From the NCBI GenBank assembly GCA_021650915.1, contig CP091279.1:1410001-1442000 (forward strand): a stretch of DNA of 32,000 bases, written 5' to 3'. A program made the translations under genes and the position numbers. Below the pieces are notes generated by a model. The model made no database searches. It saw nothing but the letters and a program-made list of their open reading frames with translations, and had not been told where the DNA came from. Shown in pieces: positions 3,189-18,874 of the stretch (position 1 is the first letter of the stretch; each line of letters begins with the position of its first letter). Source of the stretch: Candidatus Brocadia sp. (lineage in GTDB: Bacteria > Planctomycetota > Brocadiia > Brocadiales > Brocadiaceae).

Positions 3189-3337
3189 AACAAATATCTC
3201 CTTAACGACACATGGTATTTATATGATTGCTTAATGAAGATAATATGAATTGAACGCTTTTTTTATCCAGTTAAAAGCTTATTGAAGTAGTTTAACCTTT
3301 TTATAGAATAAAATCAATCTTGATAATCTATAAACAC

Positions 3338-3385
3338 GAAGAGCTGGGCAGTGAGGAATAACCCCCACAGAAGACCCAGCTCTTC
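3338..3385 (-). terminator. Stem-loop terminator downstream of the hydrazine synthase alpha gene
   Basis: Perfect 11-bp inverted repeat GAAGAGCTGGG (3338..3348) / CCCAGCTCTTC (3375..3385) with a second inner stem (GTGAGG/CCCCAC). It lies 65 nt after the stop, and the transcript continues GUGUUUAUAGAUUAU. Confidence 0.6.
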
Positions 3386-3449
3386 ATGACGTTAATATCC
3401 GTGAGTCCTGGCTTTCACAACCGACAAGCTCAGCGACCTCTCTCAGGCA

Positions 3450-5882
3450 TTATCTTGAATGATACCCCGGATAGAGATCAGGACCCTGGATGTTGTCCCA
3501 CTGTGCCCCTATATCAATCCACTCAACAAACAAATACCTCTCATCCTGCGTGAGGAACTTGTCATGCATTACTCTTCCCTCTATCGGGAATACATTCTCC
3601 CTCGGTGCAAACTGACTCAACGCCGTCTCATACAGCCTCCAAATTAACAAACTGTTGATGGCCGACGACGGATTGACATACTTACCACCAAGGTTGGCGT
3701 CCTTGCCCCTCTGCGGCTCAAGCAAGCTGGTGTACGCACGGCTGAATGCCGACACGCCATCCACACTCACTAACTCCGATCCACCCGACAAATCCGGTGA
3801 ACTGCCCGCATTGTGACAACCTGCACACTTCACATCAATGATCGGCTGAATGTCCCTGCGGAAATCCACCGTTCTCCTCTTATCATCCGTTAACCCTTCC
3901 ACCGGCTGAGATGTCGTTCCTGACGGGCCTCCATAATACACATCCGAAGGCACCACCACATCGTCCCCGTGCTTTACTCCCTGATAGATTCCACTCTTGT
4001 CAAATTTCAGGTACCCAAACGCAAAGGGTGAATCATAATGGCTCCGGTCATCATACCACCAGTTGTACAACGCCTTCGCATGCTGGTTCTGGAACGCCCT
4101 GCCACGGTACGATCCGTCATGACAACCACTGCATATCCTGCCATGATACGGCCTCAAATACGCCCATACCAACGCCGTCTGCACCGCCATTCCCCTCTCA
4201 TCCAGGTTCTGGATATAGTACGGGGTGTCAGCCGTCTGAGACGTTACCACTGAACCATCATCCTCTACATACTGATACCCGATGATCCGCCTCTGCTGGA
4301 ACGCTGTGCCTGAGTTGCTGCTTGAACGACATCCACCCAACAGGTGACTGCCCGCACCAACCTTGAACCTGCTTGCATCCGGCTCAACACACTGCGTACC
4401 TTCCACTATCCTCACCGCCTTCACATCGCCCCGCTTTGTATCCTTCGCCTTCTGATGCGGATAAGGACCTACCGGGATATCGGTCAACGTCGTGTCAAAA
4501 CAAATCCACGTTGCCCATGAATGCGGATACCCTTCCACTTTCACCTGATCAAACGGCTGATACGTCACCGTCGTTACCCCAAAGTTCTTTCCGGCCGTAA
4601 AGGTGTTGATCCACCTCGGACGGTACTTAACGTATATCGGGGCCGGCTGATGATCGTTCCACTCAGGATCATTGTGCACCAATTCCCCAGCCTTGCCATT
4701 CTTGAAATCAAACCAATAGATGCCGAAATCTCCACGCTCTGCATATGACACCAACATCCTGTCGTCAGGAAGCGGATACGGACTCCGGTACAATCCACCA
4801 TCATCCTTCGTCAACCTCTCATAGGTCTTGTTATACGGGGCATCCCAGCTTACCGATGCCAACTGACCTACTCCCCAGTTCATATACGGCGACTCTACAT
4901 ACACCAATCTCCTGTCCCCGAACGTGATCTTGGCCTGTGACCTGCCACTTGCACCGCCAACCTCACCCTCGCAGTTCCCATAGATCGGCCTCGGATACGC
5001 ACCGTCCCAGTTGTCTACACACAGCATTACCCGACCCTTGCCCCCTGCCCTGCTGCCATTGGCCTGGGTGCTGGAGAACAGGATGTTTCCATCCGGCGTC
5101 GTCGTCGGATCAAAGTTCGAACTGATGTTGTAGGTGATCTGGTCTATCGTCGTATTGATGCTCGGGAACTCTATACCCGACAACACGTGACCGGTAATTC
5201 TCTCCGTCACATGCCCGCCCTGCGTATCCAACCGGAACAGGTTATACGCATACGGATTGTGGAACTCATCCATGACGCCGTCCGGAGAACCTGCAAAGAT
5301 GATGAACCCGGTCTTCTCTACCGTGCCCCTCTCCTTCCAGTCTCCTTCAAAGTACCGGTCACGCCATATGATGCGTCCCTGACCTTCTTCGATACTGCCT
5401 GCTGCATAATAGATCGGCGCACGGCAGGTGCCCTTGTAATCCGTCATCTGCCTCAAACCGCTGCCGTCTACGTTCATCTCCCATATCTGGCATCCGCCGC
5501 CCTTCTTGTGCACCCCGGCAAATGCAAATTTCTTCCCGTCCCAATACGTTGAAGGATCAAAGGCCGTTGCAAAATCATTCGTCAATACCTTCAATTCCTT
5601 CGTCTTTAAATTGTACAGCACAATCCGGCTGCCCTCTGGCACATAGTGCGGATAGTTCTGATACGGATCTCCCTTTGTCGTCCTCGGTGACTGCGTAAAT
5701 AATAACGCATCGACCGGACCCTGCACTTCCTTCGACATCCCGCTATAATCAGTCCATAAGGCCTTTCCCTGCTTCGAACCGCCTACCATCACCTGGTTGC
5801 CCGATGCAAAGACGCTCCCACAGACCAACGCACCTGCCATGATCGCAGACGCCACCACTCCTCCTATTTTCCTCTTACTCAT
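3450..5882 (-). CDS. hzsA: Hydrazine synthase alpha subunit
   Basis: ORF 3450..5903. I prefer the ATG at 5882 (AAAGGAGAAGG about 8 nt upstream), which gives MSKRKIGGVVASAIMAGALVCGSVFA as a signal peptide. The large propeller-like N-terminal part is followed by two C-terminal CxxCH motifs (CSGCH, CAGCH). The peptides YFEGDW and HYDSPF are encoded by exact matches to the degenerate hzsA primers as I recall them (plus strand 5337..5354 and 4023..4042, 1332 bp apart). Confidence 0.93.
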   Translation of the reverse strand: MSKRKIGGVVASAIMAGALVCGSVFASGNQVMVGGSKQGKALWTDYSGMSKEVQGPVDALLFTQSPRTTKGDPYQNYPHYVPEGSRIVLYNLKTKELKVLTNDFATAFDPSTYWDGKKFAFAGVHKKGGGCQIWEMNVDGSGLRQMTDYKGTCRAPIYYAAGSIEEGQGRIIWRDRYFEGDWKERGTVEKTGFIIFAGSPDGVMDEFHNPYAYNLFRLDTQGGHVTERITGHVLSGIEFPSINTTIDQITYNISSNFDPTTTPDGNILFSSTQANGSRAGGKGRVMLCVDNWDGAYPRPIYGNCEGEVGGASGRSQAKITFGDRRLVYVESPYMNWGVGQLASVSWDAPYNKTYERLTKDDGGLYRSPYPLPDDRMLVSYAERGDFGIYWFDFKNGKAGELVHNDPEWNDHQPAPIYVKYRPRWINTFTAGKNFGVTTVTYQPFDQVKVEGYPHSWATWICFDTTLTDIPVGPYPHQKAKDTKRGDVKAVRIVEGTQCVEPDASRFKVGAGSHLLGGCRSSSNSGTAFQQRRIIGYQYVEDDGSVVTSQTADTPYYIQNLDERGMAVQTALVWAYLRPYHGRICSGCHDGSYRGRAFQNQHAKALYNWWYDDRSHYDSPFAFGYLKFDKSGIYQGVKHGDDVVVPSDVYYGGPSGTTSQPVEGLTDDKRRTVDFRRDIQPIIDVKCAGCHNAGSSPDLSGGSELVSVDGVSAFSRAYTSLLEPQRGKDANLGGKYVNPSSAINSLLIWRLYETALSQFAPRENVFPIEGRVMHDKFLTQDERYLFVEWIDIGAQWDNIQGPDLYPGYHSR

Positions 5883-5978
5883 CTGTTGGCCTTCTCCTTT
5901 CACTATTTTTTGGAATTCTCAAATATTTCTCTCATTCTCCAAAGGGCAAACACCTGGTTCACCCCTCCACAAAACCTC

Positions 5979-7004
5979 TTACAGCGCCTTCAGGAATTCA
6001 ACCAGGTCCTGCATCTCCTGCTGAGTCAAATGCGACGTCCTTCCATGCATGTCCTTCTCATTCACCGTGTTGTTGATCGTGTCTATCAACGTCCGGGCTC
6101 CCCCGTCATGGAAATACGTACCCGATGCATAAATATCCCTCAACGTCGGCGTGTCAAACTCCTTCACCAGGTCCAGCCCGATGATCGGCGTGTCACTCTC
6201 CTCGCCATAGGGATCTTCCCCTGCCTCTAATGCCTTCAGGTTAAAGACCTTTCCCGGCGTTGAACGGAAACCCTTTACCCCAACACGGCCCGTCCCCACG
6301 TCATGGGTCTGCGCATCGCTAAAAAGCGCCTTCGGATCACTTGCATCACCCGGATGGCACTCCACACATCCCACATTCGGATCGTTGAATATCTTCTCGC
6401 CCCTCTTCTGCGCATCCGTCAGCGAACCATCCGGATTCCTGAACGGACTTCCCGTGAATTCCAGCGCACGGATGTAGCAGATCAACGCCTCCAACCTCAA
6501 TGGCGAAAAGTTCTCACTCCTGAACACAAACCCAGGGTCTCTTCCGCACACCCTGTCCAGCGAACTCGTTGCTCCCACGATCTCATCCGGATGTCCCGTG
6601 AATCCCTCATGACGGAACGGCGGCAAATACCTTCCCCCACGGATGTACTTCGTGTTCTTCCAGCTTCCCCATCCCTCATCACCAAGGTCCCAGATCAATC
6701 CCGTCGTCTGGCCCCTCTCGTAATGACAGCTCGCGCATGCATACTCACCCTGAAGACCCCAAGATGCATCGTTAAACTGGAACTGCCCGTACCGCACCAG
6801 CTCGCTCTTGTACGGTGAGTGCTTTACCCGATAATGCACCTCCGGCACCGTAAGCGGTTCTGCCCGCGGAAGCGGCTCCCACTCCGGCCCCGTCTGGATC
6901 GTCGCCACTACCTGCGGCGTACCGGCCATCAACTGGCCAGTCGTCGCTACCCCCATGATCCCCAGAGCGGCTATCAAACCGATCTTTTTTATTCCACTTT
7001 TCAT
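5979..7004 (-). CDS. hzsB: Hydrazine synthase dihaem subunit (structural gamma subunit; cytochrome c peroxidase/MauG-like)
   Basis: ORF 5979..7193. I prefer the ATG at 7004 (AAGGAGGAG upstream), which gives the signal peptide MKSGIKKIGLIAALGIMGVATTG. There are two CxxCH motifs (CASCH, CVECH) and the CCP/MauG-type motif FDTPTLRDI...YFHDGG. Plus strand 6292..6311 and 6657..6676 exactly match the degenerate hzsB primers as I recall them. Naming caveat: under hzsCBA operon naming this is hzsB, but in the structural literature it is the gamma subunit. Confidence 0.9.
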   Translation of the reverse strand: MKSGIKKIGLIAALGIMGVATTGQLMAGTPQVVATIQTGPEWEPLPRAEPLTVPEVHYRVKHSPYKSELVRYGQFQFNDASWGLQGEYACASCHYERGQTTGLIWDLGDEGWGSWKNTKYIRGGRYLPPFRHEGFTGHPDEIVGATSSLDRVCGRDPGFVFRSENFSPLRLEALICYIRALEFTGSPFRNPDGSLTDAQKRGEKIFNDPNVGCVECHPGDASDPKALFSDAQTHDVGTGRVGVKGFRSTPGKVFNLKALEAGEDPYGEESDTPIIGLDLVKEFDTPTLRDIYASGTYFHDGGARTLIDTINNTVNEKDMHGRTSHLTQQEMQDLVEFLKAL

Positions 7005-7108
7005 AACTCTTTTCTCCTCCTTAATGAATTGCCCTATTTCTGAATTCTTACCGCTTATCACTCTCTTACTACTTTTCTCTCTGTAATCAGCACGACTATG
7101 CGCCACAA

Positions 7109-8239
7109 TTAATCCACCGGCGTCCTTATCACGGACACGTTGTTGGAAAAATAGTTCGCTGCATAGCAATACTTCCCATCCGGTGATAAACACACTGAGC
7201 TTGGCCCAAGTCCCGTCGGCACCCTGGCCACCAGATAATCCCTTACAAATCCAAGATCATCCCTCAGGTAATCCAGCTCCGCCTGTGAATTCCCGCGCAC
7301 GGCGTTCAACACCTTCGCCATATCCAGGATCGTTACCCGGTGCATGCCTCTTACCCCAATATACAGATACCGGCCCTTCGGATCCATCGCCAACCCGTAC
7401 GGATTTCCATCGTAGTTGTTCAACTCATCCAGCGGCAACCGCGCTACCTTACCACCCGGCTTCGTCTCCAGCACCGCGATGTTGTTCGTAAAGACCTGCC
7501 CGTTCTCTGCCTCGCACACCGGCAACCAGTTCTTCGGCGTCTCATACGTCACCACCACATACTGCCCATCAGGCGTATATACCACATCCCTCAGGTTGGA
7601 ACTCTCACGGATTACCCGCTTCTCAAGCACACGGCTCGTGTCCACATCAATAAAATTCACGCTCCGGCTAATCGAACCTACCGTGTCATTAATCACCGCA
7701 AGCGTCTTGCCGTCCGGCGATATGTCCAAGGTCCTTGGACCGTAATCACTCGTGTAGATCGCCCTCGTCTTCTCCATCCTCCCCGTGTCTATCACATCAA
7801 CCGTGTTCCACATATTTCCCGAACATGCAACGTATGCCGTCTTCCCGTCTCTGGAAATCTTTATCCCGCTTGGCCAGTCCCCCACCTTGATCTCCTTGAC
7901 GACCTGCTTGCGCGCCACGTCAATCACCGACACGCTGTCGCTCTCGGCATTGCATACATACAAAAACGCATTGTCCGGCGTTGTCGCCGCCGCCTCAGGC
8001 TGCACTCCTACCGCAACCTCACCCGTCACCTTCTGCGTCCGGGCATCCACAAACGTCACGCTATGCCCCGACTGATTGCAGATATACAACGTCCCTCCAT
8101 CCGGCGACGTCGTGATATGAAACGGCCCCGGCAGATCCGTCTTCACGTGTGTCCCCTGGATAAACCCAGCGCTCGACACACCCACCACCGACAGCACCGC
8201 TCCCACTACCGCTGCTCCTATCCATCCTCTTCCTTTCAT
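7109..8239 (-). CDS. hzsC: Hydrazine synthase beta-propeller subunit (structural beta subunit)
   Basis: ORF 7109..8308. I prefer the ATG at 8239 (AGGAGGGAAGGAAG upstream), which gives the signal peptide MKGRGWIGAAVVGAVLSVVGVSSA. It contains repeated YVTN/lactonase-type propeller blades (LYICNQSGHSVTFVD, LYVCNAESDSVSVID, AYVACSG..NTVDVID, CYAANYFSNNVSVI). It is the first gene of the three, as in the hzsCBA order; the symbol usage B/C differs between papers. Confidence 0.88.
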   Translation of the reverse strand: MKGRGWIGAAVVGAVLSVVGVSSAGFIQGTHVKTDLPGPFHITTSPDGGTLYICNQSGHSVTFVDARTQKVTGEVAVGVQPEAAATTPDNAFLYVCNAESDSVSVIDVARKQVVKEIKVGDWPSGIKISRDGKTAYVACSGNMWNTVDVIDTGRMEKTRAIYTSDYGPRTLDISPDGKTLAVINDTVGSISRSVNFIDVDTSRVLEKRVIRESSNLRDVVYTPDGQYVVVTYETPKNWLPVCEAENGQVFTNNIAVLETKPGGKVARLPLDELNNYDGNPYGLAMDPKGRYLYIGVRGMHRVTILDMAKVLNAVRGNSQAELDYLRDDLGFVRDYLVARVPTGLGPSSVCLSPDGKYCYAANYFSNNVSVIRTPVD

Positions 8240-8294
8240 CGCTCTTCCTTCCCTCCTATATCTTCGATTTTCTACAATGCAAAATAAAGCACAC

Positions 8295-8837
8295 CTATTT
8301 CGTAACATGCGGACAAGTACCTGATTTCGTACATATTATTTCCAAAGCCACACCGCACGTCTCACAATCACCTGCTTTTTCAATTTGTGGCGCATACCTT
8401 CCCTTCATCGTTGCAAAACCTTTCCCTGGTTCTGGGGTTTCTTTGCCGCATTTGGGGCATTTAAATAATGCTCTCGCCCAAATTTTTTTGCTGGTAATAT
8501 CATCTCCGCATTCATCACAGGCACCAGGAGCTGGCATACATACTCCATATTTCTTACAATTGGTATTTACACAACTGTAAGCAATCTTTTGGCATGCCCA
8601 GCATGTAGGCAAATCGGTATGGGTCTTGTCCCCTGCAGCACGATGTTTTGCAAAATCCCAGATATATCCGATTTCAGAACACTCATTAAATTCACGAACA
8701 TCTTTGCATGCATCACACCAATATGCTTCTAAAATCTGCCGTTTATCGCACGGTTTATCCCATGCAGCAAAAACTGGCTGACCCAGAGAAACAATCATGC
8801 TTACCATACCTGCAGCTAGAAAAAAAGTCCTTTTCAT
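8295..8837 (-). CDS. Small secreted Cys-rich protein of unknown family (five CxxC pairs, zinc-ribbon-like knuckles)
   Basis: ORF 8295..8849 starts at a GTG; I prefer the ATG at 8837. The signal peptide is MKRTFFLAAGMVSMIVSLGQPVFA. The mature part has 17 Cys, including CDAC, CWAC, CDEC, CPKC and CETC. The stop is 55 nt upstream of the first hzs start, on the same strand. Confidence 0.75.
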   Translation of the reverse strand: MKRTFFLAAGMVSMIVSLGQPVFAAWDKPCDKRQILEAYWCDACKDVREFNECSEIGYIWDFAKHRAAGDKTHTDLPTCWACQKIAYSCVNTNCKKYGVCMPAPGACDECGDDITSKKIWARALFKCPKCGKETPEPGKGFATMKGRYAPQIEKAGDCETCGVALEIICTKSGTCPHVTK

Positions 8838-8910
8838 AATTCTACTCACCCCCTTCCGTATGTTTTTTTCGTTCTTTTTAGAAATATATCACGCAACCAA
8901 ATTAACATGC

Positions 8911-8925
8911 GCACAAGTCATACCA
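8911..8925 (-). promoter_or_regulatory. Candidate sigma-54 (-24/-12) promoter upstream of the Cys-rich gene and hzs operon
   Basis: The minus strand reads TGGTATGACTTGTGC, which has the correct GG-N10-GC spacing of the TGGCAC-N5-TTGC consensus with flanking T's. It lies about 75 nt upstream of the ATG at 8837 and directly downstream of a sigma-54 activator gene. This is a pattern match only. Confidence 0.3.
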
Positions 8926-9074
8926 AACACGCTACATGTTCTACATAAATCATAACCAGTTCATTAATGGTGAATTAAAAAAACCAACTTTATTCATGCT
9001 CATATCCTTTGTACAACAGTTTGGTTTAATTCAACCATTTTTATAGTCTTTGCCTTCTGCAAGACCATTATCAA

Positions 9075-10466
9075 TCAATTTGCAAGACCATACTTTTGTA
9101 ACCTATACCGAAATGTGCCTCTTGTTAAACCAAGCAACTTTGCAGCTTTTGTTTTATTATTTTTACTTTTTTCGAGCGCTTGCGTAACCAACTGTTTTTC
9201 TAGGGCGTCCAGAGATAAACCATGCGGGGGAATATCAAATGAAACCAACCGATCTACGGATTGCGCTTTATCTCTATTAACATATTGTGCACACCTTACT
9301 ATCGTCACCGGCAAGTGCTCAGAAGTGATTACGTTTGTCTTACAAAGAATTACCGCTCGTTCAATAACATTTTGCAACTCCCTGATATTACCTTCCCACT
9401 TATGCAGGACAAGCAATTTTTCCGCTTCCTTGCTTAACGAAACCGGCGATTTACCCATTTTTATGGAAAACCGTTTTAAGAAGTGCCTGCTCAATGGAAT
9501 AATGTCTTCACTTCTTTCTCTTAACGGCGTCAGGGTAATTGGAAAAACACTTATTCTGTAATATAAATCTTCTCTAAATTTTCCCGCTCTTACCAATTCT
9601 TCAAGATTCTTATTGGTTGCGCATATAATCCTGCTATCAGCTTTAATCGTTTCCGTACCACCAAGACGCTCCATTTCTTTCGCCTCAATCACCCGCAGCA
9701 CTTTTGCCTGGACAGACATACTCATTTCTGATATTTCGTCCATGAAAAAAGTACCCCCTGACGCTAGTTCAAAACGTCCTTTTTTTGTTTTTTCCGCGTT
9801 AGTAAATGCACCTCGTTCATAACCAAACAATTCACTTTCAAGCAAATTTTCCGGTATCGCAGCGCAATTCACCACAACAAGAGGACCACCCCCTCTGTTG
9901 CTGTTATAGTGAATTGCACGCGCAATTAGTTCCTTTCCTGTACCACTTTCTCCCGTTATCAATACCGTTGAGTCGGTTTTCGATACTTCACCAACCAATC
10001 TCAATGCCTCAATTACCTGCGGTGAATTACCTATGATATTTTTAAAGTCATACTGGGATTCAAGTTCTTGACGTAAATATTTATTTTCAATGGTAAGAGT
10101 GCTCATTTTCAGCGCCCTATTCACAGCCAACTTAAGAATTTCTTTCTCAAACGGCGTGGTAAGGTAGTCAAAAACCCCTTCTTTCATCACGTCAATTACT
10201 GACCCAACAGAGCCAAAAGCTGTTAGCACTATAATGGGCAGGTCGGGAACCTTGCATTTGATTGCCTTGAGAAATTCGAGCCTTCCCATTTCCTGAACTT
10301 TGAGATCCGTTATGAGAAGATGAAACCGCTCATTCTCAAGATAATCAAGCGTTGACTCACAACAACTTGTCGTCACAACCTTGACATCTTTCATCTCCTC
10401 AAAAACCATAGCAAGCACTCTTCGCATGCGTTCTTCATCATCTGCAATTAAAACTCTGTAAGCCAT
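9075..10466 (-). CDS. Sigma-54-dependent response regulator (NtrC family: receiver + AAA+ + Fis-type HTH)
   Basis: 463 aa. The receiver domain has an acidic pocket (LIADDEE ... LLITDLKV). The Walker A motif is GESGTGKE, the sigma-54 contact loop is ERGAFTNA (a variant of GAFTGA), and the C-terminal HTH is KTKAAKLLGLTRGTFRYRLQKYGL. There is no adjacent histidine kinase. Confidence 0.9.
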   Translation of the reverse strand: MAYRVLIADDEERMRRVLAMVFEEMKDVKVVTTSCCESTLDYLENERFHLLITDLKVQEMGRLEFLKAIKCKVPDLPIIVLTAFGSVGSVIDVMKEGVFDYLTTPFEKEILKLAVNRALKMSTLTIENKYLRQELESQYDFKNIIGNSPQVIEALRLVGEVSKTDSTVLITGESGTGKELIARAIHYNSNRGGGPLVVVNCAAIPENLLESELFGYERGAFTNAEKTKKGRFELASGGTFFMDEISEMSMSVQAKVLRVIEAKEMERLGGTETIKADSRIICATNKNLEELVRAGKFREDLYYRISVFPITLTPLRERSEDIIPLSRHFLKRFSIKMGKSPVSLSKEAEKLLVLHKWEGNIRELQNVIERAVILCKTNVITSEHLPVTIVRCAQYVNRDKAQSVDRLVSFDIPPHGLSLDALEKQLVTQALEKSKNNKTKAAKLLGLTRGTFRYRLQKYGLAN

Positions 10467-10544: not shown

Positions 10545-11390
10545 TCATATAGCCCAAACGATAAGAGCGGAAAACATGAATCCTACCATGATTAACCCGG
10601 TAATTAAGATGGGAACCGCAAACAACCTCGTTAGAAAACTTACGAACAGTGAAGGGGGAGCAACTTTATAATTTTCCAACTGCTGCTGACTTTCAAGTCT
10701 TTTAAACTGATTAAGTCGCTCATGTCGAAATTCTGCCTCTGTTATTTTACCGGTAAAAATCGCCTCATCAACGGGCATTTTTTCCGGTAGCAGGTGGGTG
10801 TGAAAAAAGTGAATCGTGAATATAAAACCAGCCGCCAGAATCGCCTCATATCGATGAATGATCAAGGCTATACTTGGAAGATCAACTATCGTGGCAACTG
10901 AAACGGGGATAATTTTTGTGAATTGCACGGGGAACCATAGAATTAATCCAGTGACCGCCATTACCAATGTTCCCCACATCAACGATAAGTATTCAAACTT
11001 TTCCCAATAAATCCATTGGTCAAAATTAGGACGCTTCCCAATACCAAGAAACCATTTAAGATCAGCAACAATATCAAACAGATCTCTCGGTTGAATGAGC
11101 AAAGAATTTGGCCCCCAAAAGAAGCCCTTCCTTTTTTGAACGGATATACAAATAAACAAGTAGAGAAAATGAATAAAGGCAGCAAAAAAAGTTATGAGCG
11201 CACAAATACGATGAATAAATCCAGCCGTTGGGTAACCGCCAAACAGCTCATATAGCCAACGCGCCCATGCGTAACCTCTAAATGCCAGAGGCATCCCCGT
11301 TAAGACAAGGCCAAAAAAACTTATAATGATCAAAAAGTGGCAAAACCTGTGAAATAAACTAAACCTCACGTAATTAATGCTGCTCTTCAT
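10545..11390 (-). CDS. Integral-membrane b-type cytochrome (FdnI / Ni-Fe hydrogenase cytochrome b-like), putative quinol-interacting subunit
   Basis: ORF 10545..11417; a start at ATG 11390 (MKSSINYVRF) is plausible. It has the family signature RFSLFHRFCHFLIIISFFGLVLTG and several TM helices with conserved His (IHRICA, IHFLY, IHRYEA, HFFHTH). It overlaps the stop of the upstream heptahaem gene, which suggests translational coupling. Confidence 0.75.
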   Translation of the reverse strand: MKSSINYVRFSLFHRFCHFLIIISFFGLVLTGMPLAFRGYAWARWLYELFGGYPTAGFIHRICALITFFAAFIHFLYLFICISVQKRKGFFWGPNSLLIQPRDLFDIVADLKWFLGIGKRPNFDQWIYWEKFEYLSLMWGTLVMAVTGLILWFPVQFTKIIPVSVATIVDLPSIALIIHRYEAILAAGFIFTIHFFHTHLLPEKMPVDEAIFTGKITEAEFRHERLNQFKRLESQQQLENYKVAPPSLFVSFLTRLFAVPILITGLIMVGFMFSALIVWAI

Positions 11391-12426
11391 CTGTATGCCC
11401 CTTTCCCTTATACTCATCTCGCGCTACAGCAAACCAACTTAGCAATGAATGAATTCCAAAAGAAGAAAATGTAAACGCCAAAATCCCCACATACATTACA
11501 AATACAGCACATAAAATTGTCTGCGGGTTCTTTAAAATGGTTTTAAGATTTTCCGGATTACTTCGCGCTTCTTTTATCGCCGATATCAATTTTTTATAAT
11601 AATTTATATTCTTAATCTGCGGATGCTCTACATGCTTTACAAAACTCGCATTGGCACCTGCATGACAATTACCGCATGTTTCCAAAATCTTTTCTTTGCC
11701 GACTTTCGATTCCGGGTCGGTCGAGTTCAAGATCTTATGCTTGCCATGACAATCAAAGCATACCGGGACATCAGTATCCGTGTGACCAAGCGCAGTGACC
11801 TGGCCATGAGCATTATTTCGATAGCTATCAAGATATTCCTGATGGCACTCCCCGCACGACTCAATTGTTAATCTTCTGTGTAATGGATCCGTTCCTCTAG
11901 GCACATCCATTGGTGATTTCTCACCAAGCGATGTATAATGATAAGTCAAACCTGCATGGCAATCCTTGCACGTCGGGACATCTTTGTTGTTTTGCTTCAT
12001 CAATTTCACGTGGTTGCTTTGTAAATAATCGTCTGCCGGGTCGTCGTGACAAAAAGTTATGCAATCAACTGGTTTCAGATTTGGCTTGTGGCCTTCCGTT
12101 AGATCCGCCCCATCAAGATCCTGGTGGCAATCAGTGCAAAAGAAATCTTCCCCCCCGTGAGCTGAAGCCTTAAAGGTTACTTCATCAACTACCATCGAAA
12201 CCACCTTAATTTCGCCTGTGACGGGATTGATCTTCGCCTTTTCAACAGTCTTTAGCTTATCCGGCTTGGTATGACATTCAATACATGGGCCGTTATCGCC
12301 TGCAGTTAAAACTGCAGGCGACAGACCAATGATAGCCACACTTACGACAACAAGTACGCACAATTTAATTTTTTTAAAACTCGACAAAACTTCACCTCTT
12401 AAGCTTTTCTCTGACTTATAAACCAT
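11374..12426 (-). CDS. Heptahaem c-type cytochrome with N-terminal signal/anchor and C-terminal TM helix
   Basis: 350 aa with GAGGAGG upstream of the ATG. There are six CxxCH motifs (CIECH, CTDCH, CKDCH, CGECH, CFDCH, CGNCH) plus one CxxxCH (CITFCH). A hydrophobic C-terminal helix (ILCAVFVMYVGILAFTFSSFGI) is present. Confidence 0.85.
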   Translation of the reverse strand: MVYKSEKSLRGEVLSSFKKIKLCVLVVVSVAIIGLSPAVLTAGDNGPCIECHTKPDKLKTVEKAKINPVTGEIKVVSMVVDEVTFKASAHGGEDFFCTDCHQDLDGADLTEGHKPNLKPVDCITFCHDDPADDYLQSNHVKLMKQNNKDVPTCKDCHAGLTYHYTSLGEKSPMDVPRGTDPLHRRLTIESCGECHQEYLDSYRNNAHGQVTALGHTDTDVPVCFDCHGKHKILNSTDPESKVGKEKILETCGNCHAGANASFVKHVEHPQIKNINYYKKLISAIKEARSNPENLKTILKNPQTILCAVFVMYVGILAFTFSSFGIHSLLSWFAVARDEYKGKGHTDEEQH

Positions 12427-12469
12427 CTACGGAATCCTCCTCAGCTAGATAACTCTTAAGCCCAAAGAG

Positions 12470-13180
12470 TTATTCCTTTTTCTTTGGTTTTAATGGTGTA
12501 TTAAGAATCTCATCTTTCGGCAACAGAGCGGCCCACTTCTTTTTGTCCTCGGGAGAAAGCTTTTTAATCAATACATCAATTTCATCCTCATCGCGATGAT
12601 CGTCCTTCTTGAAATAATCTTTATAATCCATAACCTTATCCGTCTTTGGACATTTGTTTTTATCATCTTTATTTTCCCAATGACAGGTCAGGCATTGCTC
12701 TTTTACCGTTGCGGGTCCGTTAATCCCAGCCACAATCAAGCCGGCATCAAACTGCACCTTCCTTGCTTCAAAAGGATCCTTCTTTAACAATTCCTTAAAT
12801 GCGTCCTTTCCCTTACCCTGGAAGTTCTCCTTTAATTTTTTATACTCAGAACCAGCGCCATGACAGGCCTCGCATTGTACATTCGGCAAATATTTTTTGC
12901 CAACTTCAGCGATCTTTTCACCGTACGCGGTAGCGTGGCATTTCAAGCAATCAGGATTTTCCGCATCCGGAGTTCCTTTCAGCCTTTTTTCCCATGTATT
13001 GGAATGCAATCTCTCTTTGTATTCTTCGCCCTCAAAGCAACCTTTTCCCATATGACACTTACAGCCGCTATTACCAACAAAATCAGCACCATTGGATATT
13101 GCCGGAAGAGAAGAAGCTAAACTCCACACAGAAACCACAATACCACTTATCAAACACAGAGTTTTTCTACCACCAAACAT
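12470..13180 (-). CDS. Secreted multihaem c-type cytochrome (c554-like), three canonical haem motifs plus one contracted CxCH
   Basis: 236 aa with a signal peptide. Motifs are CLKCH, CEACH and CLTCH, plus CKCH. The pattern CLKCHATAYG...VQCEACHGAGSEY is typical of cytochrome c554-family proteins. The C-terminal tail is lysine-rich. Confidence 0.85.
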   Translation of the reverse strand: MFGGRKTLCLISGIVVSVWSLASSLPAISNGADFVGNSGCKCHMGKGCFEGEEYKERLHSNTWEKRLKGTPDAENPDCLKCHATAYGEKIAEVGKKYLPNVQCEACHGAGSEYKKLKENFQGKGKDAFKELLKKDPFEARKVQFDAGLIVAGINGPATVKEQCLTCHWENKDDKNKCPKTDKVMDYKDYFKKDDHRDEDEIDVLIKKLSPEDKKKWAALLPKDEILNTPLKPKKKE

Positions 13181-13405: not shown

Positions 13406-14761
13406 TCATGAATGCTGATTTTTCAGCAATAAATTTTCCACAAAATTCGTATTGATATTCCCACTTGCAAATTGCGAATGTGCAATTAGCTCTAAATTGA
13501 GCGGAATGGTCGTCTTAATACCTTCGATCACGTATTCACCTAAAGCCCTTTTCATACACGCGATTGCTTCTTCTCGTGTTTTTTGATGAACAATTAGCTT
13601 TGAAATCATAGAATCATAATACGGAGGAACCTGATACCCGGCGTGTACGTGAGAGTCAACCCTTACGCCTCTTCCACCAGGCGGGTTATAGAACGTTATC
13701 TTACCTGGTTGAGGGCGAAACCCGTTGTTTGGGTCTTCAGCATTTATTCGGCACTCTATTGCAACGCCACGGGGTCTGACTCTTTTTTGCTTTATATTCA
13801 TGCGTTCACCACTTGCAATTCTTATCTGTTGTTTCACTAAATCAATACCGGTAACCATCTCCGTAACGGGATGCTCCACCTGAAGGCGGGTATTTACCTC
13901 TATAAAATAAAAATCACCCGCTTTATTTACTAAAAATTCAACGGTACCAGCATTAGTATAATTCACTGCCTTTGCAATTTTAATTGCCGCCTTGCATATC
14001 TCCTCACGTAAGCGTTCAGATATCGCAGGAGATGGGGATTCTTCTATGAGCTTTTGATGTTTTCGCTGTAAAGTACAGTCCCTTTCACCCAGGTGGATGA
14101 TATTACCGTAATTATCACCAAATATTTGCACCTCTACGTGGCGCGTATCTTCAATATATTTTTCTATGTATATCGATGGATCTTTAAAAGCCGATTCCGC
14201 TTCCCGTTGAGCAATCGCCAAGGAATTTACCAGACTTATGTCGTTGTGGGCAACGCGCATCCCACGCCCGCCACCACCAGAAGACGCTTTAATAATAACG
14301 GGATATCCAATCTTGTGTGCCACATCAAGCGCTTGCTGCTGACTTTTGATAACCGATTCACTCCCCGGGACTACAGGCACTTTACAAGCCTGAGCAATTT
14401 TTCTCGCTTCGGTTTTGTCTCCCAGTTTTTTCAATACGTCTGATTTCGGACCAATAAATACTATTTTGGAGGATTCGCACACTTCGGCAAAATGACTCAC
14501 CTCTGACAAAAAACCATATCCAGGATGTATCGCTTCAATATCCGTTATCTCTGCGGCACTGATAATGCTCGGAATATTCAAATAACTACCTTCTGCCTCT
14601 GAGGGACCGACACACACCGTAATATCTGCTTGCTTTAAATACATGGCATCTTTATCCGACTTCGAACATATTGCAACGGTTTCTATGCCCATTTCACGAC
14701 AAGCCCGAATAATTCTTAAAGCAATCTCGCCACGATTTGCAACCATTATCCTGGAAAACAT
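13406..14761 (-). CDS. accC: Acetyl-CoA carboxylase biotin carboxylase subunit
   Basis: 451 aa. It begins with the [31 protein letters not shown]-terminus and has an ATP-grasp region (GGGGRGMRV), both highly characteristic. Confidence 0.95.
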
Positions 14762-14813
14762 ACCCTTTGTTATCCTTCAGTCATTAATTTTATGAAGTTT
14801 ACCAACATCTCTG

Positions 14814-15278
14814 TCACTGTGCTGATCGCCTAACACGAAAGAGTGGCTGGCCAAATTCTACTGCCTCGCCGTCATTGACATAAATATCCACAATTTCGCC
14901 TACCATTTCAGCTTTCACTTCGTTCATGATCTTCATTGCTTCAATGATACACACAACGGTCTCTTCATTCACAACATCTCCCACATTCGCACACGGCTCC
15001 GCACCAGGGGCATTGGCCCGATAAAATGTACCCACCATCGGAGAAATTATCTCTTTCGTATTTTCACCCTCTTTCGACAACACAGGCACCTGATGTCTTT
15101 GCTCTAACGACGAAGTATAGAGAGGGGGGACTGCAACTGCGGAAGCAACGGTATGCGTATAACCAGCATCACTCTTTTTCAGCCTTATTTTTGTGACATC
15201 TTCCTGAATTTCAATTTCAGACAACTCGTTTTCATTCATAATGGAAATTAATTGCTTTACCTTGTCTATAATACTCAT
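14814..15278 (-). CDS. accB: Biotin carboxyl carrier protein of acetyl-CoA carboxylase
   Basis: 154 aa with the biotinyl-lysine motif IEAMKIMNEV near the C-terminus. It lies immediately upstream of accC. Confidence 0.92.
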   Translation of the reverse strand: MSIIDKVKQLISIMNENELSEIEIQEDVTKIRLKKSDAGYTHTVASAVAVPPLYTSSLEQRHQVPVLSKEGENTKEIISPMVGTFYRANAPGAEPCANVGDVVNEETVVCIIEAMKIMNEVKAEMVGEIVDIYVNDGEAVEFGQPLFRVRRSAQ

Positions 15279-16600: not shown

Positions 16601-17947
16601 TTACTTCTTTTCTTTTCTAATCTTTTCTATTAACGTATCGATAAACACCTTAAATTGCTTGTCAGTATCAATTTGTTCTTTCACCTTCTTTATAGCAAAC
16701 ATAACGGTGGAGTGTTTCTTACTGGCAAAATAATTCCCGATTTGCTGGTAAGACCAGTTGAGGAGCGTCTTGATCAGGTACATGCATATTTGCCGTGGAA
16801 AGGAGATAGATTTTATTTTTTTGCTCGAATGAAGCTCATTGCGTGAGATGTTGAAATAACTTAAAATCGCCGCTTCAATCTCATTAATCTTAACGATTTT
16901 CCCTTCCGCTAAGAAAAATTCTCCCAGAACGTCACTGGCCAAATGGATATCTATATTTTTCTCGTTAAACTTGGCATGCGCCGAGAGTGTTGTCAACGCG
17001 CTTTCAACTTCCCTTACATTATCTTCAAATCGCTCTGCAATAAACTCCAGTACTTCTTCAGGAAAATGCACATCAAAACTTGCGGCCTTTGACCTCAAAA
17101 TCAAAAGCCTTGTCGCATAATCAGGCTTATCTATCTTGACAATCATCCCTGACATAAACCGGCTCGCAAGCGTTTCTTTCAGCTGACCAATCATCTTTGG
17201 ATGCGCATCGCTTGCAAAGATAATTCTTTTTGACAACTCATACAATGCATTGAAGGTATGTAAAAATTCTTCCTGAACTCCCTGCTTATTGGAAAGGAAA
17301 TGTACATCGTCAATAAGAAATAGATCCACATTCCTGAATTTTTGCCGAAACGCTTCCATCTTTCCCTTTTGCAATGAATAAATAAATTCATTTGTCCATT
17401 TCTCAGCCGGCATGTAAATGCTATTGACATTTTGTTCTTCCCGAATCCGATTCCAAACGCCTTGAAGAATATGCGTTTTTCCAACACCAACGGGACCATG
17501 AATAAAAAGAGGATTAAATGCGGGGTATTTGTCCTTCATAATTTCAAGGGACGCCGTATATGCCATTCTATTATTAGGACCTACTACAAAATCCTCCAGC
17601 TTCAGGTATCTATTCAATGATGAAACGGCTTTATTACCTTCCGACTTCCTTTCAACAGGAGAATTATCAACCGGCAGAATTTGGTCACCTTTACCGTTTT
17701 GTGCTATGGAAAATCTTATATTCAGATCCTTACTATTTACAAGCTTTCCGATACCATCTCTCAAGATATTCGAAAAATTCTCCTGCAACCATACCTGGGT
17801 AAATACATTCGGCACGGCAATGTTTACACAGTTATCATTGAAAGATTCAAGCCGGGTATTTTTAAACCACAGATTGAACCGCAAAGGACCCACTCTTTCC
17901 CGAATATCCTGAAGCACATCATCCCAGACCTTTGTGTAAAACTCCAT
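16601..17947 (-). CDS. dnaA: Chromosomal replication initiator protein DnaA
   Basis: 448 aa. Walker A is GPVGVGKTHIL and Walker B is LIDDVHFL. Domain IV has the HTH region (SFPRQICMYLIKTLLNWSYQQIGNYFASKKHSTVMFAIKKV). An AT-rich region lies upstream. Confidence 0.95.
   Translation of the reverse strand: MEFYTKVWDDVLQDIRERVGPLRFNLWFKNTRLESFNDNCVNIAVPNVFTQVWLQENFSNILRDGIGKLVNSKDLNIRFSIAQNGKGDQILPVDNSPVERKSEGNKAVSSLNRYLKLEDFVVGPNNRMAYTASLEIMKDKYPAFNPLFIHGPVGVGKTHILQGVWNRIREEQNVNSIYMPAEKWTNEFIYSLQKGKMEAFRQKFRNVDLFLIDDVHFLSNKQGVQEEFLHTFNALYELSKRIIFASDAHPKMIGQLKETLASRFMSGMIVKIDKPDYATRLLILRSKAASFDVHFPEEVLEFIAERFEDNVREVESALTTLSAHAKFNEKNIDIHLASDVLGEFFLAEGKIVKINEIEAAILSYFNISRNELHSSKKIKSISFPRQICMYLIKTLLNWSYQQIGNYFASKKHSTVMFAIKKVKEQIDTDKQFKVFIDTLIEKIRKEKK
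16735..17216. repeat. Copy 1 (inside intact dnaA) of a 482-bp direct repeat
   Basis: Manual alignment to 18875..19356 at a constant offset of 2140 shows no indels and 12 substitutions. Confidence 0.9.
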
Positions 17948-17974
17948 TACTCGTGGTATCCTTTTACGCTATGA

Positions 17975-18590: not shown

Positions 18591-18874
18591 AAGCACTGTG
18601 GCGCGGAATGGAGTTTTCCTGCTTACTCGCCGCGCCTGATTGTGCGCTGTGCGCAGACAAACGTTTCTCCGTTCTTGCTCATCCTGTCAGTTCAAGAGTA
18701 TCTATCACCCCTCCTTTCCATGCCTTTTTGTCACGAAAATACGGCGTTGCCGGCATTCTGTATTCAACCCGGATCCCAAGATAGTAAGAAGTTAAAAGTA
18801 ACCCCTTAAGGGGAACCAGTAGCAATACCCTTTTAGGACTAATCACGTCACCCGTTATGCGGGTGGCTACTGAC
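18591..18874. other. GC-richer, hairpin-dense non-coding segment of unknown nature at the repeat junction
   Basis: There is a stem GGCGCGG (18600..18606) / CCGCGCC (18630..18636), a tandem TGTGCGC x2 (18641..18654), a palindrome CCCCTTAAGGGG (18802..18813), and a hairpin CACCCG (18849..18854) / CGGGTG (18860..18865). No credible ORF is present. Confidence 0.4.

What the first reader, a model, noticed from the sequence alone, without database searches (positions are those of the whole stretch)
8295..8837. Uncharacterised secreted Cys-rich mini-protein placed as leader gene of the hydrazine synthase operon
The 180-aa product has a Sec-type signal peptide followed by about 155 residues with 17 cysteines. 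These include five CxxC pairs (CDAC, CWAC, CDEC, CPKC, CETC), two of them in classical zinc-ribbon/rubredoxin-knuckle context (KCPKCGK, DCETCG). I cannot place it in a named family. Its stop is only 55 nt from the SD/ATG of the first hzs gene on the same strand, and I saw no intervening hairpin terminator. The best sigma-54 promoter candidate lies upstream of it, so it is probably the first cistron of the hzs transcript. Its position and export signal suggest a metal-binding (Zn or Fe) accessory, assembly factor or small redox partner delivered to the same compartment as HZS. That function is inference only.
Basis: partly seen in the sequence, partly recalled or inferred. Interest (0 to 1): 0.65.

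Follow-up and report, generated by a model that had tools for sequence, protein, structure and literature searches.

The report
Secreted zinc-ribbon protein leading hzs operon
The gene is real and matches the "unknown protein" kuste2858 already listed in the hydrazine synthase gene cluster: an exported, cysteine-rich protein built from zinc-ribbon modules, encoded as the first gene of the main hydrazine synthase operon in anammox bacteria, with a function nobody has tested.

Summary
A 180-aa ORF lies on the minus strand at 8295-8837. It has a Sec-type leader, 17 Cys and five CxxC motifs. It ends 55 nt before the first hzs gene, with no hairpin in between.

It is the orthologue of Kuenenia kuste2858/KsCSTR_28180. 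The literature lists that gene as an "unknown protein" of the HZS cluster, and it has been detected by proteomics at about 1% of HZS.

- **Conservation:** 15 Cys and 2 His are invariant across Brocadiales, and dN/dS is 0.02-0.04.
- **Structure:** a confident AlphaFold model (pLDDT 90.5) has no overall match in the PDB. Only zinc-ribbon modules match locally. No Pfam or NCBIfam family fits.
- **Synteny:** in all 41 genome loci where downstream sequence is visible, the gene sits directly upstream of hzs-β.
- **Promoter:** the operon promoter lies upstream of the Cys gene. 56 of 60 loci carrying the adjacent σ54 activator have a σ54 promoter there. All 9 loci lacking the activator have a consensus σ70 promoter instead.
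- **Second hzs copy:** a near-identical second copy has its own σ54 activator and promoter but lacks this gene.

Leader-cistron status is therefore well supported. Metal binding and an accessory role for HZS remain inference. The gene is already on record, but its family, fold and regulation had not been described.

The parts
8295..8837 (-). Cys-rich ORF of 180 aa including stop, orthologue of kuste2858/KsCSTR_28180. Signal peptide codons are 8837-8766; the mature 156-aa protein is 8765-8298.
   Evidence: sequence; 15 invariant Cys, invariant H73 and H177; KsCSTR_28180/Q1Q0T5 sits in the cluster of P0012, which is 58% identical; dN/dS 0.02-0.04; confident all-β model with zinc-ribbon local matches only.
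8846..8853 (-). Shine-Dalgarno box of the Cys gene. The wider motif GAAAGGGGGTGA is conserved across genera.
   Evidence: near-invariant block in 23 aligned loci.
8911..8925 (-). σ54-type promoter, -24 TGGTAT and -12 GTGC, 88 nt upstream of the ATG. The predicted transcription start is near 8900.
   Evidence: single site in the window; the same motif at -79 to -130 in 56 of 60 loci that carry the activator gene, and absent in 9 of 9 that lack it; TGG and TGC invariant while the spacer varies.
9022..9037 (-). Conserved dyad TGGTTGAATTAAACCA, about 105 nt upstream of the -24 element. It is a candidate enhancer (UAS) for the adjacent σ54 activator.
   Evidence: the TGGYNGA...CAGCCA dyad is conserved in position in Brocadia, Jettenia-like and Kuenenia loci. 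Binding is inferred, not tested.
9075..10466 (-). NtrC-type σ54 activator with receiver, AAA+ and HTH_8 domains; orthologue of kuste2857.
   Evidence: Sigma54_activat 3.6e-70, Response_reg, HTH_8; its presence co-varies with the σ54 promoter.
8240..8294 (-). 55-nt spacer between the Cys gene and hzs-β. It is AT-rich, carries a strong Shine-Dalgarno sequence and has no hairpin. From about 8272 downward the sequence is shared with the second hzs copy.
   Evidence: (identity with L104 starts 33 nt before the hzs-β ATG).
7109..8239 (-). hzs β subunit, a seven-bladed β-propeller of 376 aa.
   Evidence: β-propeller families; orthologues 62-92% identical in the same position.
5979..7004 (-). hzs γ subunit, a dihaem protein resembling cytochrome c peroxidase/MauG, 341 aa.
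3450..5882 (-). hzs α subunit. The likely start is ATG 5882; the ORF listing starts at GTG 5903.
   Evidence: Pfam HZS_alpha PF18582, 6.6e-29.
3335..3388 (-). Strong hairpin followed by a U-rich tract after hzs-α. This is the probable operon terminator.
   Evidence: -35.2 kcal/mol, z = -7.1, 0 of 200 shuffles fold as well.
10545..13180 (-). Electron-transfer module genes upstream: cytochrome b-like membrane protein (10545-11417) and two multihaem cytochromes (11374-12426 and 12470-13180). These correspond to kuste2856, kuste2855 and kuste2854.
   Evidence: (the same order in all 43 genome loci).

Best explanation
The ORF encodes the Brocadia orthologue of kuste2858. It is a Sec-exported protein of about 17 kDa, all-β, made of zinc-ribbon modules.

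**Likely metal sites (inferred).** By homology with simpler relatives, the invariant ligands fall into:
- three ribbon sites: C41/C44 plus C53 and/or H73; C89/C94/C107/C110 (an HMBD-like 'PGxCxxCG' motif); and C127/C130/C158/C161;
- one clamp site: C30/C82/C169/H177, which ties the N-terminus, middle and C-terminus together.

These sites most likely hold structural Zn(II), loaded after export.

**Place in the operon.** The gene is the first cistron of the hzs operon that is linked to the electron-transfer module:
- the neighbouring NtrC-type activator binds a conserved dyad at 9037-9022;
- it fires the σ54 promoter at 8925-8911;
- the transcript runs through the Cys gene and hzs β, γ and α to the hairpin at about 3335.

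**Expression and proposed role.** The protein is translated at a low level. GC3 is 0.32, and LFQ intensity is about 1% of HZS, similar to the electron-transfer-module proteins. It is absent from the duplicated hzs unit. I therefore propose that it acts in trans and sub-stoichiometrically, as an accessory (adaptor or maturation factor) for HZS or its electron-transfer module. The anammox-specific insert at residues 53-77 (EIGYIWDF..H) is the likely docking surface.

**Shown:** gene reality, conservation, synteny, promoter architecture, expression of the orthologue.
**Inferred:** Zn binding (about 0.65), co-transcription (about 0.8), accessory role for HZS or its electron-transfer module (about 0.45).
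For: - **Orthology and literature:**. PMC12053348 and PMC6423088 list kuste2858 as an unknown protein in the kuste2854-2861 cluster.
- **Conservation:**
- **Fold:** one search gives pLDDT 90.5 and pTM 0.81. One search finds only local hits to Zn-ribbon modules (8ovl HMBD, 7pxp, eIF2γ, MCM, PolD). Distant relatives pass or approach the Pfam thresholds for Zn_ribbon_6 and HMBD. hhalign of A1 against A2 gives 99.6% probability.
- **Odd Cys count:** one clade has 15 Cys in total. An all-disulfide protein is therefore not possible there.
- **Synteny:** 43 genome loci share the order MH3-MH7-cyt b-[RR54]-Cys-hzsβ. The hzs-β start is visible directly downstream in 41. 32 metagenome loci show the same arrangement.
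- **Promoter co-variation:** 56 of 60 loci against 0 of 9, with a σ70 promoter in 9 of 9 activator-less loci. The dyad and the -24/-12 footprint are conserved. There is no internal σ54 site.
- **Termination:** no hairpin in the spacer; a strong terminator follows hzs-α.
- **Low expression:** (GC3). Hu 2019, Table 2, gives LFQ 144,710 for kuste2858 against 16-27 million for HZS and 217,000-411,000 for kuste2856 and kuste2854.
- **Co-regulation:** all fall on hydrazine exposure. The log2 fold change is -3.07 for KsCSTR_28180, against -4.02 and -3.04 for the two hzs-β copies.
Against: - There are no transcript-end or long-read RNA data, so co-transcription is comparative inference only.
- In Kuenenia, mRNA coverage of the Cys gene is about 6-fold lower per kb than that of hzs-β at the same locus.
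- In NO-grown cells, kuste2858 fell 22.6-fold while hzs genes were not in the down-regulated list. This fits co-transcription only if the second hzs copy supplies most hzs mRNA, or if the leader segment decays faster.
- By my recollection of Dietl 2015, purified and crystallised HZS contains only α, β and γ. No physical link to HZS is known.
- Distant relatives occur without any hzs genes, so the ancestral function is not HZS-specific.
- Metal content is untested. The ligand grouping comes from motifs and homology, not from model coordinates.
Confidence: 0.5

Rival explanations
1. It is a signalling or regulatory accessory rather than an enzyme helper. Under this reading it is an exported metal- or redox-sensing protein belonging to a σ54/two-component circuit. 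The logic would resemble ZraP with ZraSR. Its linkage to hzs would then reflect the regulator, not the enzyme.
For: - Distant homologues lie next to a σ54 activator plus REC protein (L109-L112) or next to REC/HK genes (L120).
- One distant homologue lies behind a perfect σ54 promoter at -94 in a 71%-GC genome (L113). None of these loci has hzs genes.
- In anammox bacteria the gene stays with the regulator and electron-transfer-module side and is excluded from the duplicated hzs unit.
- It is the most strongly regulated gene of the cluster in NO-grown Kuenenia, at 22.6-fold.
Against: - The clade that lost the activator keeps the gene in the same place behind a σ70 promoter. Its function therefore does not depend on that regulator.
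- Most distant homologues have no regulator nearby.
- There is no sequence or fold relation to ZraP/CpxP/Spy.
Confidence: 0.2
2. It is a small electron carrier. One or more Cys4 sites would bind Fe, as in rubredoxin, and pass electrons between the trihaem/heptahaem module and HZS.
For: - C107-x2-C-G and C127-P-x-C-G resemble rubredoxin knuckles.
- The gene sits between the electron-transfer-module genes and hzs.
- Its protein level is similar to that of the electron-transfer-module components (PMC6423088, Table 2).
Against: - There is no hit to the Rubredoxin Pfam family even at E = 0.1.
- By homology with simpler relatives, those two knuckles belong to different ribbons.
- Sec export of an unfolded apoprotein is unusual for Fe-Cys4 proteins (general knowledge).
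- Structural matches are to Zn sites.
- The literature assigns electron delivery to the trihaem kuste2854 (PMC12053348).
Confidence: 0.1
3. It is a metal-free, disulfide-knotted exported protein. Under this reading it would have a structural or protective role, for example as a thiol buffer or scavenger against NO, hydroxylamine or hydrazine, or as an envelope component. It would be only coincidentally operonic with hzs.
For: - Cys content is high in an exported protein.
- Relatives have variable genomic contexts.
Against: - One clade has an odd number of Cys (15).
- The CxxC...CxxC spacing and the invariant His are typical of Zn ribbons.
- Ligands are swapped rather than lost in pairs: C161 is Asp in one clade, and C175 is Phe, Pro or Ala in distant relatives while H177 stays invariant.
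- Foldseek finds only Zn modules.
Confidence: 0.1
4. It is an independent transcription unit. hzs β-γ-α at this locus would have its own promoter inside the 3' part of the Cys gene, and the adjacency would say nothing about function.
For: - mRNA and protein levels differ strongly from hzs.
- There is an abrupt change of codon usage at the boundary.
Against: - The spacer is only 35-65 nt in every lineage and has no element conserved across genera.
- There is no conserved σ54 motif inside the ORF.
- In the second hzs copy the promoter sits 175-226 nt upstream, in non-coding DNA.
- Both promoter types, σ54 and σ70, are always placed upstream of the Cys gene.
- An unrecognised promoter type cannot be excluded.
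Confidence: 0.1

Closest known systems
kuste2858 / KsCSTR_28180 (UniProt Q1Q0T5) of Kuenenia stuttgartiensis, the 'unknown protein' of the HZS gene cluster kuste2854-2861
   Same: It is the orthologue. The cluster holding KsCSTR_28180 is represented by P0012, which is 58% identical over the full length. It occupies the same position between the σ54 regulator and the first hzs gene. It has the same Cys pattern.
   Different: Nothing functional has been published for it in the searchable literature. Only two papers mention it, both as unknown or uncharacterised. The zinc-ribbon architecture, the wider family, the promoter and enhancer anatomy, and the gene's absence from the second hzs copy are worked out here.
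Zinc-ribbon / HMBD modules (Pfam Zn_ribbon_6 PF07191, HMBD PF19335; e.g. the LpCopA heavy-metal-binding domain, PDB 8ovl)
   Same: The knuckle motifs are CxxC...CxxC. 'PGAC107DEC110G' matches the HMBD 'PGxCxxCG' signature. There are local structural matches: 8ovl over 33 residues at rmsd 2.2, TM 0.63 on the target, and 7pxp and eIF2γ at rmsd 1.6-2.6. One distant relative passes the Pfam cut-off for Zn_ribbon_6.
   Different: The window protein itself is below every Pfam and NCBIfam cut-off. It combines several modules plus an interleaved Cys3His clamp into a fold with no global PDB match; the best hit has E = 0.65 and TM <= 0.25. It is Sec-exported, whereas classic zinc ribbons are cytoplasmic.
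Kustc1130, the assembly factor of hydrazine dehydrogenase (PMC6469936)
   Same: It is a small exported anammox-specific 'unknown protein' that turned out to organise a key catabolic enzyme. It sets a precedent for the proposed accessory role. Both genes are among the most down-regulated in NO-grown Kuenenia: 29.2-fold for kustc1130 and 22.6-fold for kuste2858.
   Different: No sequence relationship between the two has been shown; they were not compared here. Kustc1130 is roughly stoichiometric with HDH and was seen in the crystal. kuste2858 is at about 1% of HZS. I know of no report of it in HZS structures; this rests on my recollection of Dietl 2015, which I did not check here.
ZraP with ZraSR (HydHG) of enterobacteria. 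This is a resemblance recalled from memory, not tested.
   Same: A small exported metal-binding protein expressed from a σ54 promoter under an adjacent NtrC-type activator.
   Different: ZraP belongs to the α-helical CpxP/Spy family and is not Cys-rich. Its gene is divergent from the regulator. No homology is claimed.

Membership tests
kuste2858 orthologue group (the unknown protein of the HZS cluster) | Full-length sequence similarity to Kuenenia kuste2858/KsCSTR_28180 | tested here: met
   (P0012: E = 4.6e-70, 58% identity, 100% coverage). (the P0012 cluster contains KsCSTR_28180 / Q1Q0T5_KUEST).
kuste2858 orthologue group (the unknown protein of the HZS cluster) | Position between the σ54 response regulator and the first hzs gene, on the same strand | tested here: met
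   The order KsCSTR_28170-28180-28190 is given in PMC12053348.
Zinc-ribbon proteins (Pfam Zn_ribbon_6, HMBD, Zn_ribbon_LysW) | HMM score above the curated family cut-off | tested here: not met
   the best hit is Zn_ribbon_LysW at 17.3 bits against a cut-off of 27. CxxC_Se_CxxC scores 15.3 against 40. Only the distant relative P0035 passes Zn_ribbon_6, at 29.6 against 25.
Zinc-ribbon proteins (Pfam Zn_ribbon_6, HMBD, Zn_ribbon_LysW) | Two CxxC knuckles on β-hairpins with the zinc-ribbon fold | tested here: met
   a confident β-hairpin model whose only structural analogues are Cys4 Zn modules. These matches are local (33-52 residues), with E-values above 0.6.
Zinc-ribbon proteins (Pfam Zn_ribbon_6, HMBD, Zn_ribbon_LysW) | Bound Zn(II) | not testable with these tools
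   Requires metal analysis of the protein.
Rubredoxin | Match to Pfam Rubredoxin, with CxxCG ... CPxCG knuckles about 30 residues apart around an aromatic core | tested here: not met
   There is no Rubredoxin hit at E <= 0.1. The two rubredoxin-like knuckles are 16 residues apart and, by homology with relatives, belong to different ribbons.
c-type cytochromes (as in the rest of the cluster) | CxxCH haem-binding motif | tested here: not met
   None of the five CxxC motifs is followed by His.
σ54-dependent operon | -24 GG / -12 GC promoter with correct spacing upstream of the first gene, conserved in orthologous loci | tested here: met
σ54-dependent operon | Cognate enhancer-binding protein and an upstream binding site | tested here: inconclusive
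   The activator gene is adjacent and co-varies with the promoter. A conserved dyad lies about 105 nt upstream. Binding itself was not testable.
σ54-dependent operon | One transcript covering the Cys gene and hzs β-γ-α | not testable with these tools
   There is indirect support only: a short spacer without a terminator or internal promoter, and a terminator after hzs-α.

The most novel reading that the evidence does not exclude
The protein is the founding, experimentally tractable member of an undescribed family of Sec-exported multi-zinc-ribbon proteins. In anammox bacteria it would have been recruited as a dedicated maturation factor of hydrazine synthase. One possibility is delivery or insertion of the unusual Zn ion that replaces the haem-iron ligand at haem αI (αHis587/αCys303; PMC12758564). 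Another is docking of HZS to its membrane-bound electron-transfer module. This would explain why it is kept as the first cistron of the module-linked hzs operon in every lineage.
Probability: 0.15. Interest if true: 0.75.

Novelty: new variant of a known kind. Interest (0 to 1): 0.5.

Why it matters
Hydrazine synthase is the defining enzyme of anammox and its rate-limiting step. How it is matured, supplied with electrons and regulated is still unclear. This gene is the one universally conserved member of the HZS cluster with no assigned role.

The analysis gives it a concrete description:
- an exported protein built from zinc-ribbon modules with a new overall fold;
- low abundance;
- first cistron of a σ54-controlled operon.

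It also provides a regulatory map (dyad, σ54 promoter, activator, and a σ70 replacement where the activator is lost) and shows that anammox genomes carry two differently wired hzs loci. Together these make the function testable by pull-down, metal analysis and heterologous co-expression with HZS.

If the protein is only a generic σ54-regulated envelope protein, the finding is of modest interest.

Tried and rejected
- **Family assignment failed.** Pfam and NCBIfam scans of the protein and its relatives gave no family above threshold.
- **No PDB relative by sequence.** A profile search against PDB sequences found only spurious C2H2 zinc-finger matches with E >= 0.04.
- **No global fold match.** Foldseek against the PDB was run with two models. 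The first (15-sequence alignment, pLDDT 72.7) and the better one (36 sequences, pLDDT 90.5) both found nothing global. The ligand grouping therefore rests on motifs and homology.
- **No relic in the second hzs locus.** tblastn and blastn found nothing. The only shared sequence is the 34 nt before and including the hzs-β ATG.
- **No internal σ54 promoter.** The only recurrent TGG-N9-TGC inside the ORF is imposed by the WCDAC codons, and it vanishes where TGT is used.
- **σ70 and terminator scan.** The numbers found were no higher than in shuffles, and nothing lies between the two genes.
- **An apparent exception was an artefact.** In L003 no hzs follows the gene, but a run of N (a scaffold gap) interrupts hzs-β after codon 61.
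- **Contexts of distant homologues.** There is no common neighbour and no hzs-like gene.
- **No transcript mapping in the literature.** A search for transcription-start data in anammox bacteria found none.
- My first hzs-β and hzs-γ start coordinates (8242, 7007) were one codon too long. The correct starts are 8239 and 7004.
Full report
**1. What is in the sequence**

ATG is at 8837 and the TAG stop at 8297-8295, giving 180 aa. A script counted 17 cysteines, all downstream of residue 29, and five CxxC motifs at 41, 79, 107, 127 and 158.

The N-terminus MKRTFFLAAGMVSMIVSLGQPVFA|AWDKP has the charge, hydrophobic core and small-x-small layout of a Sec signal peptide. It has no RR motif and no lipobox. 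This is read from the sequence, because no predictor was available. An in-frame GTG at 8849 lies inside the Shine-Dalgarno box, and all homologues start at the MK, so 8837 is the true start.

The next gene on the same strand starts at ATG 8239, so the spacer is exactly 55 nt. That gene is a β-propeller. It is followed by a dihaem CCP/MauG-like gene (5979-7004) and a gene with the Pfam HZS_alpha domain (3450-5882). These are hydrazine synthase β, γ and α. The letters hzsB and hzsC are used inconsistently in the literature for the first two genes, so I use the Greek names.

Upstream on the same strand lie an NtrC-type σ54 activator, a cytochrome b-like membrane protein and two multihaem cytochromes. 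This is the layout of the Kuenenia cluster kuste2854-2861.

**2. It is a real, constrained gene, and it is already on record**

A search of 5.8 billion proteins found 19 relatives, all unnamed or 'hypothetical'. An exact-sequence cluster look-up showed that the group 58% identical to the window protein contains KsCSTR_28180 / Q1Q0T5_KUEST, which is kuste2858. Two papers list that gene as the 'unknown' or 'uncharacterized' protein of the HZS gene cluster.

In Kuenenia it is detected by proteomics at LFQ 144,710-178,908. This compares with 16-27 million for the HZS subunits, and 411,257 and 216,773 for the trihaem and cytochrome b proteins of the same cluster (PMC6423088, Table 2).

In an alignment of 15 orthologues down to 44% identity, 15 Cys, H73 and H177 are invariant. 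C79 and C161 are not. dN/dS against other Brocadia loci is 0.02-0.04.

**3. What kind of protein it is**

Nothing in Pfam or NCBIfam reaches threshold. The best matches are zinc-ribbon models below cut-off.

An exhaustive HMM search of 1.8 billion representatives found only 30 hits. These included a set of 142-195-aa proteins from non-anammox metagenomes with the same layout: a signal peptide, KCDxKxVxKAYYCxxC, VCVKTxYxC, YKCPxCG and a C-terminal SGTxPH. Profile-profile comparison confirms homology over 158 columns, with probability 99.6% and E = 5e-25.

These simpler relatives are plain strings of CxxC-x9-10-CxxC zinc ribbons. One passes the Pfam Zn_ribbon_6 cut-off, and several approach the HMBD cut-off. 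They also carry four residues conserved family-wide: C30, C82, C169 and H177 in window numbering.

Transferring that pattern to the window protein suggests:
- three ribbon sites: C41/C44 with C53 and/or H73; C89/C94/C107/C110, which contains the HMBD-like PGxCxxCG; and C127/C130/C158/C161;
- one interleaved Cys3His clamp.

This grouping is inference, because I had no access to model coordinates. Two observations favour metal sites over a pure disulfide knot. One clade has exactly 15 Cys, an odd number. Ligand positions are swapped rather than lost in pairs: C161 to Asp, and C175 to Phe, Pro or Ala with H177 invariant.

With the 36-sequence alignment, AlphaFold2 gave a confident all-β model of the mature protein (pLDDT 90.5, pTM 0.81). 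Foldseek against the PDB found no global match; the best had E = 0.65 and TM <= 0.25. Only local superpositions appeared, on Cys4 zinc modules: the LpCopA HMBD (8ovl), the benzoylsuccinyl-CoA thiolase small subunit, eIF2γ, MCM and PolD.

There is no CxxCH motif and no Rubredoxin hit. Residues 53-77 (EIGYIWDF..H) are specific to the anammox proteins and are the least confident, helical part of the model.

**4. Is it the leader gene of the hzs operon?**

*Synteny.* A scan of one genome per species returned 43 loci from Brocadia, Jettenia, Kuenenia, Loosdrechtia, Scalindua and deeper Brocadiales. All have the order trihaem-heptahaem-cyt b-[activator]-Cys gene. The hzs-β start is visible 35-65 nt downstream in 41 of them. 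The other two contigs end too early. One apparent exception, L003, is a scaffold gap. Scalindua-type loci carry two tandem paralogues.

*Promoter position.* The spacer has no element conserved across genera, no terminator and no stable fold. The ORF contains no conserved σ54 site. The promoter sits upstream of the Cys gene.
- Among 60 loci with the adjacent activator gene, 56 have TGG-N9-TGC at -79 to -130 of the first Cys gene.
- All 9 loci from the clade that lacks the activator have no such site. They have a consensus TTGAYW-N15-18-TATAAT at -70 to -119 instead.
- These loci are not all independent, but they span the order.

*Upstream footprint.* An alignment of 23 upstream regions shows invariant -24 TGG and -12 TGC around a variable spacer. 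It also shows a conserved dyad about 105 nt further upstream (window 9037-9022) and a conserved Shine-Dalgarno box.

*Terminator.* The only strong terminator-like hairpin lies after hzs-α (-35.2 kcal/mol, z = -7.1).

I rate co-transcription at about 0.8.

**5. The gene is not attached to every hzs copy**

About 25 of the 43 genome contigs end 36-270 nt after the Cys gene. Short contigs encoding the window's hzs-β begin at its start.

A metagenome scan with hzs-β explained this.
- 32 loci have the Cys gene upstream.
- 16 loci have none. In nine of these, a paralogous σ54 activator (41-47% identical) precedes hzs-β by about 450 nt.
- A near-consensus σ54 promoter (TGGTACAATTATTGC) lies 175-226 nt upstream of hzs-β in most of the 16; L087, L098 and L104 show none.
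- No relic of the Cys gene is present in the eight of these loci tested.

Identity between the window and such a locus (L104) starts 33 nt before the hzs-β ATG, at about window position 8272. This is exactly where GC jumps from about 0.40 to 0.53-0.56 and GC3 from 0.32 to 0.63-0.69.

The literature agrees. Kuenenia MBR1 and CSTR1 have duplicated hzs clusters (PMC5854607, PMC12053348). The two Brocadiaceae copies are identical but differently flanked (PMC12758564).

The Cys gene therefore travels with the electron-transfer module and the regulator, not with the homogenised enzyme genes. It is needed at most once per cell.

**6. Expression**

In Kuenenia CSTR1, control read counts were:
- 1412 and 531 for KsCSTR_28180;
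- 18,593 and 4,964 for hzs-β of the same locus;
- 25,549 and 7,150 for the second copy.

All fall on hydrazine exposure. Per kb, the leader is about 6-fold below its neighbour. The two hzs copies are identical, so read assignment between them is arbitrary.

In NO-grown Kuenenia, kuste2858 fell 22.6-fold and kuste2854-2857 fell 5.7-9.6-fold. The hzs genes are not in the down-regulated list.

These data fit co-transcription only if the second locus supplies most hzs mRNA, or if the leader segment is less stable. They are the main evidence against a simple operon picture. They also show that the protein is not stoichiometric with HZS. Its abundance resembles that of the electron-transfer-module proteins.

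**7. Interpretation**

*Best explanation (overall about 0.5).* The protein is an exported, Zn-stabilised, low-abundance accessory encoded as the first cistron of the σ54-controlled, module-linked hzs operon. It acts in trans on HZS or its electron-transfer module as an adaptor or maturation factor. The HDH assembly factor Kustc1130 is a precedent for small 'unknown' anammox proteins of this sort (PMC6469936), although that protein is stoichiometric.

*Rivals.*
- A regulatory or sensing accessory of a σ54 circuit (0.2). Some distant homologues sit next to σ54/REC genes or behind a σ54 promoter. Against this, the activator-less clade keeps the gene.
- A rubredoxin-like electron carrier (0.1).
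- A metal-free disulfide protein (0.1).
- An independent transcription unit (0.1).

A specific Zn-chaperone role for the haem αI zinc site (PMC12758564) is attractive, but there is no evidence for it.

**8. Novelty and score**

The gene's existence and position are already published, so the bare finding is a rediscovery. Its building blocks, zinc ribbons, are a known kind.

As far as the searchable literature shows, the following are new:
- the family definition and its non-anammox relatives;
- a confident fold with no PDB counterpart;
- the promoter, enhancer and activator co-variation;
- the contrast between the two hzs loci.

I file it as a new variant of a known kind, with interest 0.5. 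It is a neglected but universally conserved member of the central anammox gene cluster, and it is now directly testable.

Noticed in passing
window 3450-8272 (minus strand): The hzs β, γ and α genes have GC 0.53-0.56 and GC3 0.63-0.69, in a region where other genes have GC3 0.32-0.42. The jump coincides with the start of the sequence shared with the second hzs copy. It also coincides with the point where about 25 MAG contigs break. This suggests concerted evolution (gene conversion) together with strong codon selection on hzs. hzs-β also shows lower dS than the Cys gene.
   Followed up: partly
L047, L050, L052, L053, L059, L066, L076, L087, L104 (upstream of hzs-β): A second type of hzs locus. 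A paralogous σ54 activator (41-47% identical) lies upstream. A near-consensus σ54 promoter sits 175-226 nt upstream of hzs-β in most of these loci, though none was found in L087 or L104. The long 5'UTR contains a conserved GAAAGGAGGTGG box, the same box that serves as the Shine-Dalgarno sequence of the Cys gene in locus 1. Here it is followed by no real ORF.
   Followed up: partly
L035, L041-L043, L070-L072, L075, L081 (upstream of the Cys gene): A deep Brocadiales clade lacks the σ54 activator gene. It has a consensus σ70 promoter in place of the σ54 promoter. It also has a conserved ACTGCCTGG motif in the 5'UTR whose role is unknown.
   Followed up: partly
L034, L037-L040, L073, L079, L090, L096: Scalindua-type loci carry two tandem paralogues of the Cys-rich gene, about 35% and 45% identical to the window protein. 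A single σ54 promoter lies upstream of the first.
   Followed up: partly
window 3335-3388 (minus strand): A very stable hairpin (-35.2 kcal/mol, z = -7.1) followed by a U-rich tract lies just after hzs-α. The simple terminator scan missed it because of its long loop.
   Followed up: yes
window 16601-19334: dnaA lies at 16601-17947 on the minus strand. Next to it is a 500-bp stretch of 24% GC (18001-18500) and a separate ORF with only the DnaA C-terminal domain (18894-19334). The hzs cluster therefore lies about 10 kb from the probable replication origin.
   Followed up: no
L113/L114 (5218) and L109-L112: Non-anammox relatives of the Cys-rich protein. One sits behind a perfect σ54 promoter (TGGTACGTCGCTTGCA at -94) in a 71%-GC genome. 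Another sits directly after a σ54 activator and a stand-alone receiver protein. The family may be generally linked to σ54, but other members show no such link.
   Followed up: partly
L074: Two hzs-β genes lie in tandem on one metagenome contig. This is reminiscent of the partial extra hzs copy reported for Kuenenia MBR1 (PMC5854607).
   Followed up: no
window 21422-24058 (+) and 13406-15278 (-): A DabA-type inorganic-carbon transporter subunit lies at 21422-24058. Biotin carboxylase and biotin carboxyl carrier protein genes lie at 13406-15278, flanking the cluster.
   Followed up: no
P0027 (824 aa, metagenome): The C-terminal 110 residues match the C-terminal two-thirds of the Cys-rich protein. 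They follow a long repeat-rich region. This may be a fusion or a mis-called gene.
   Followed up: no
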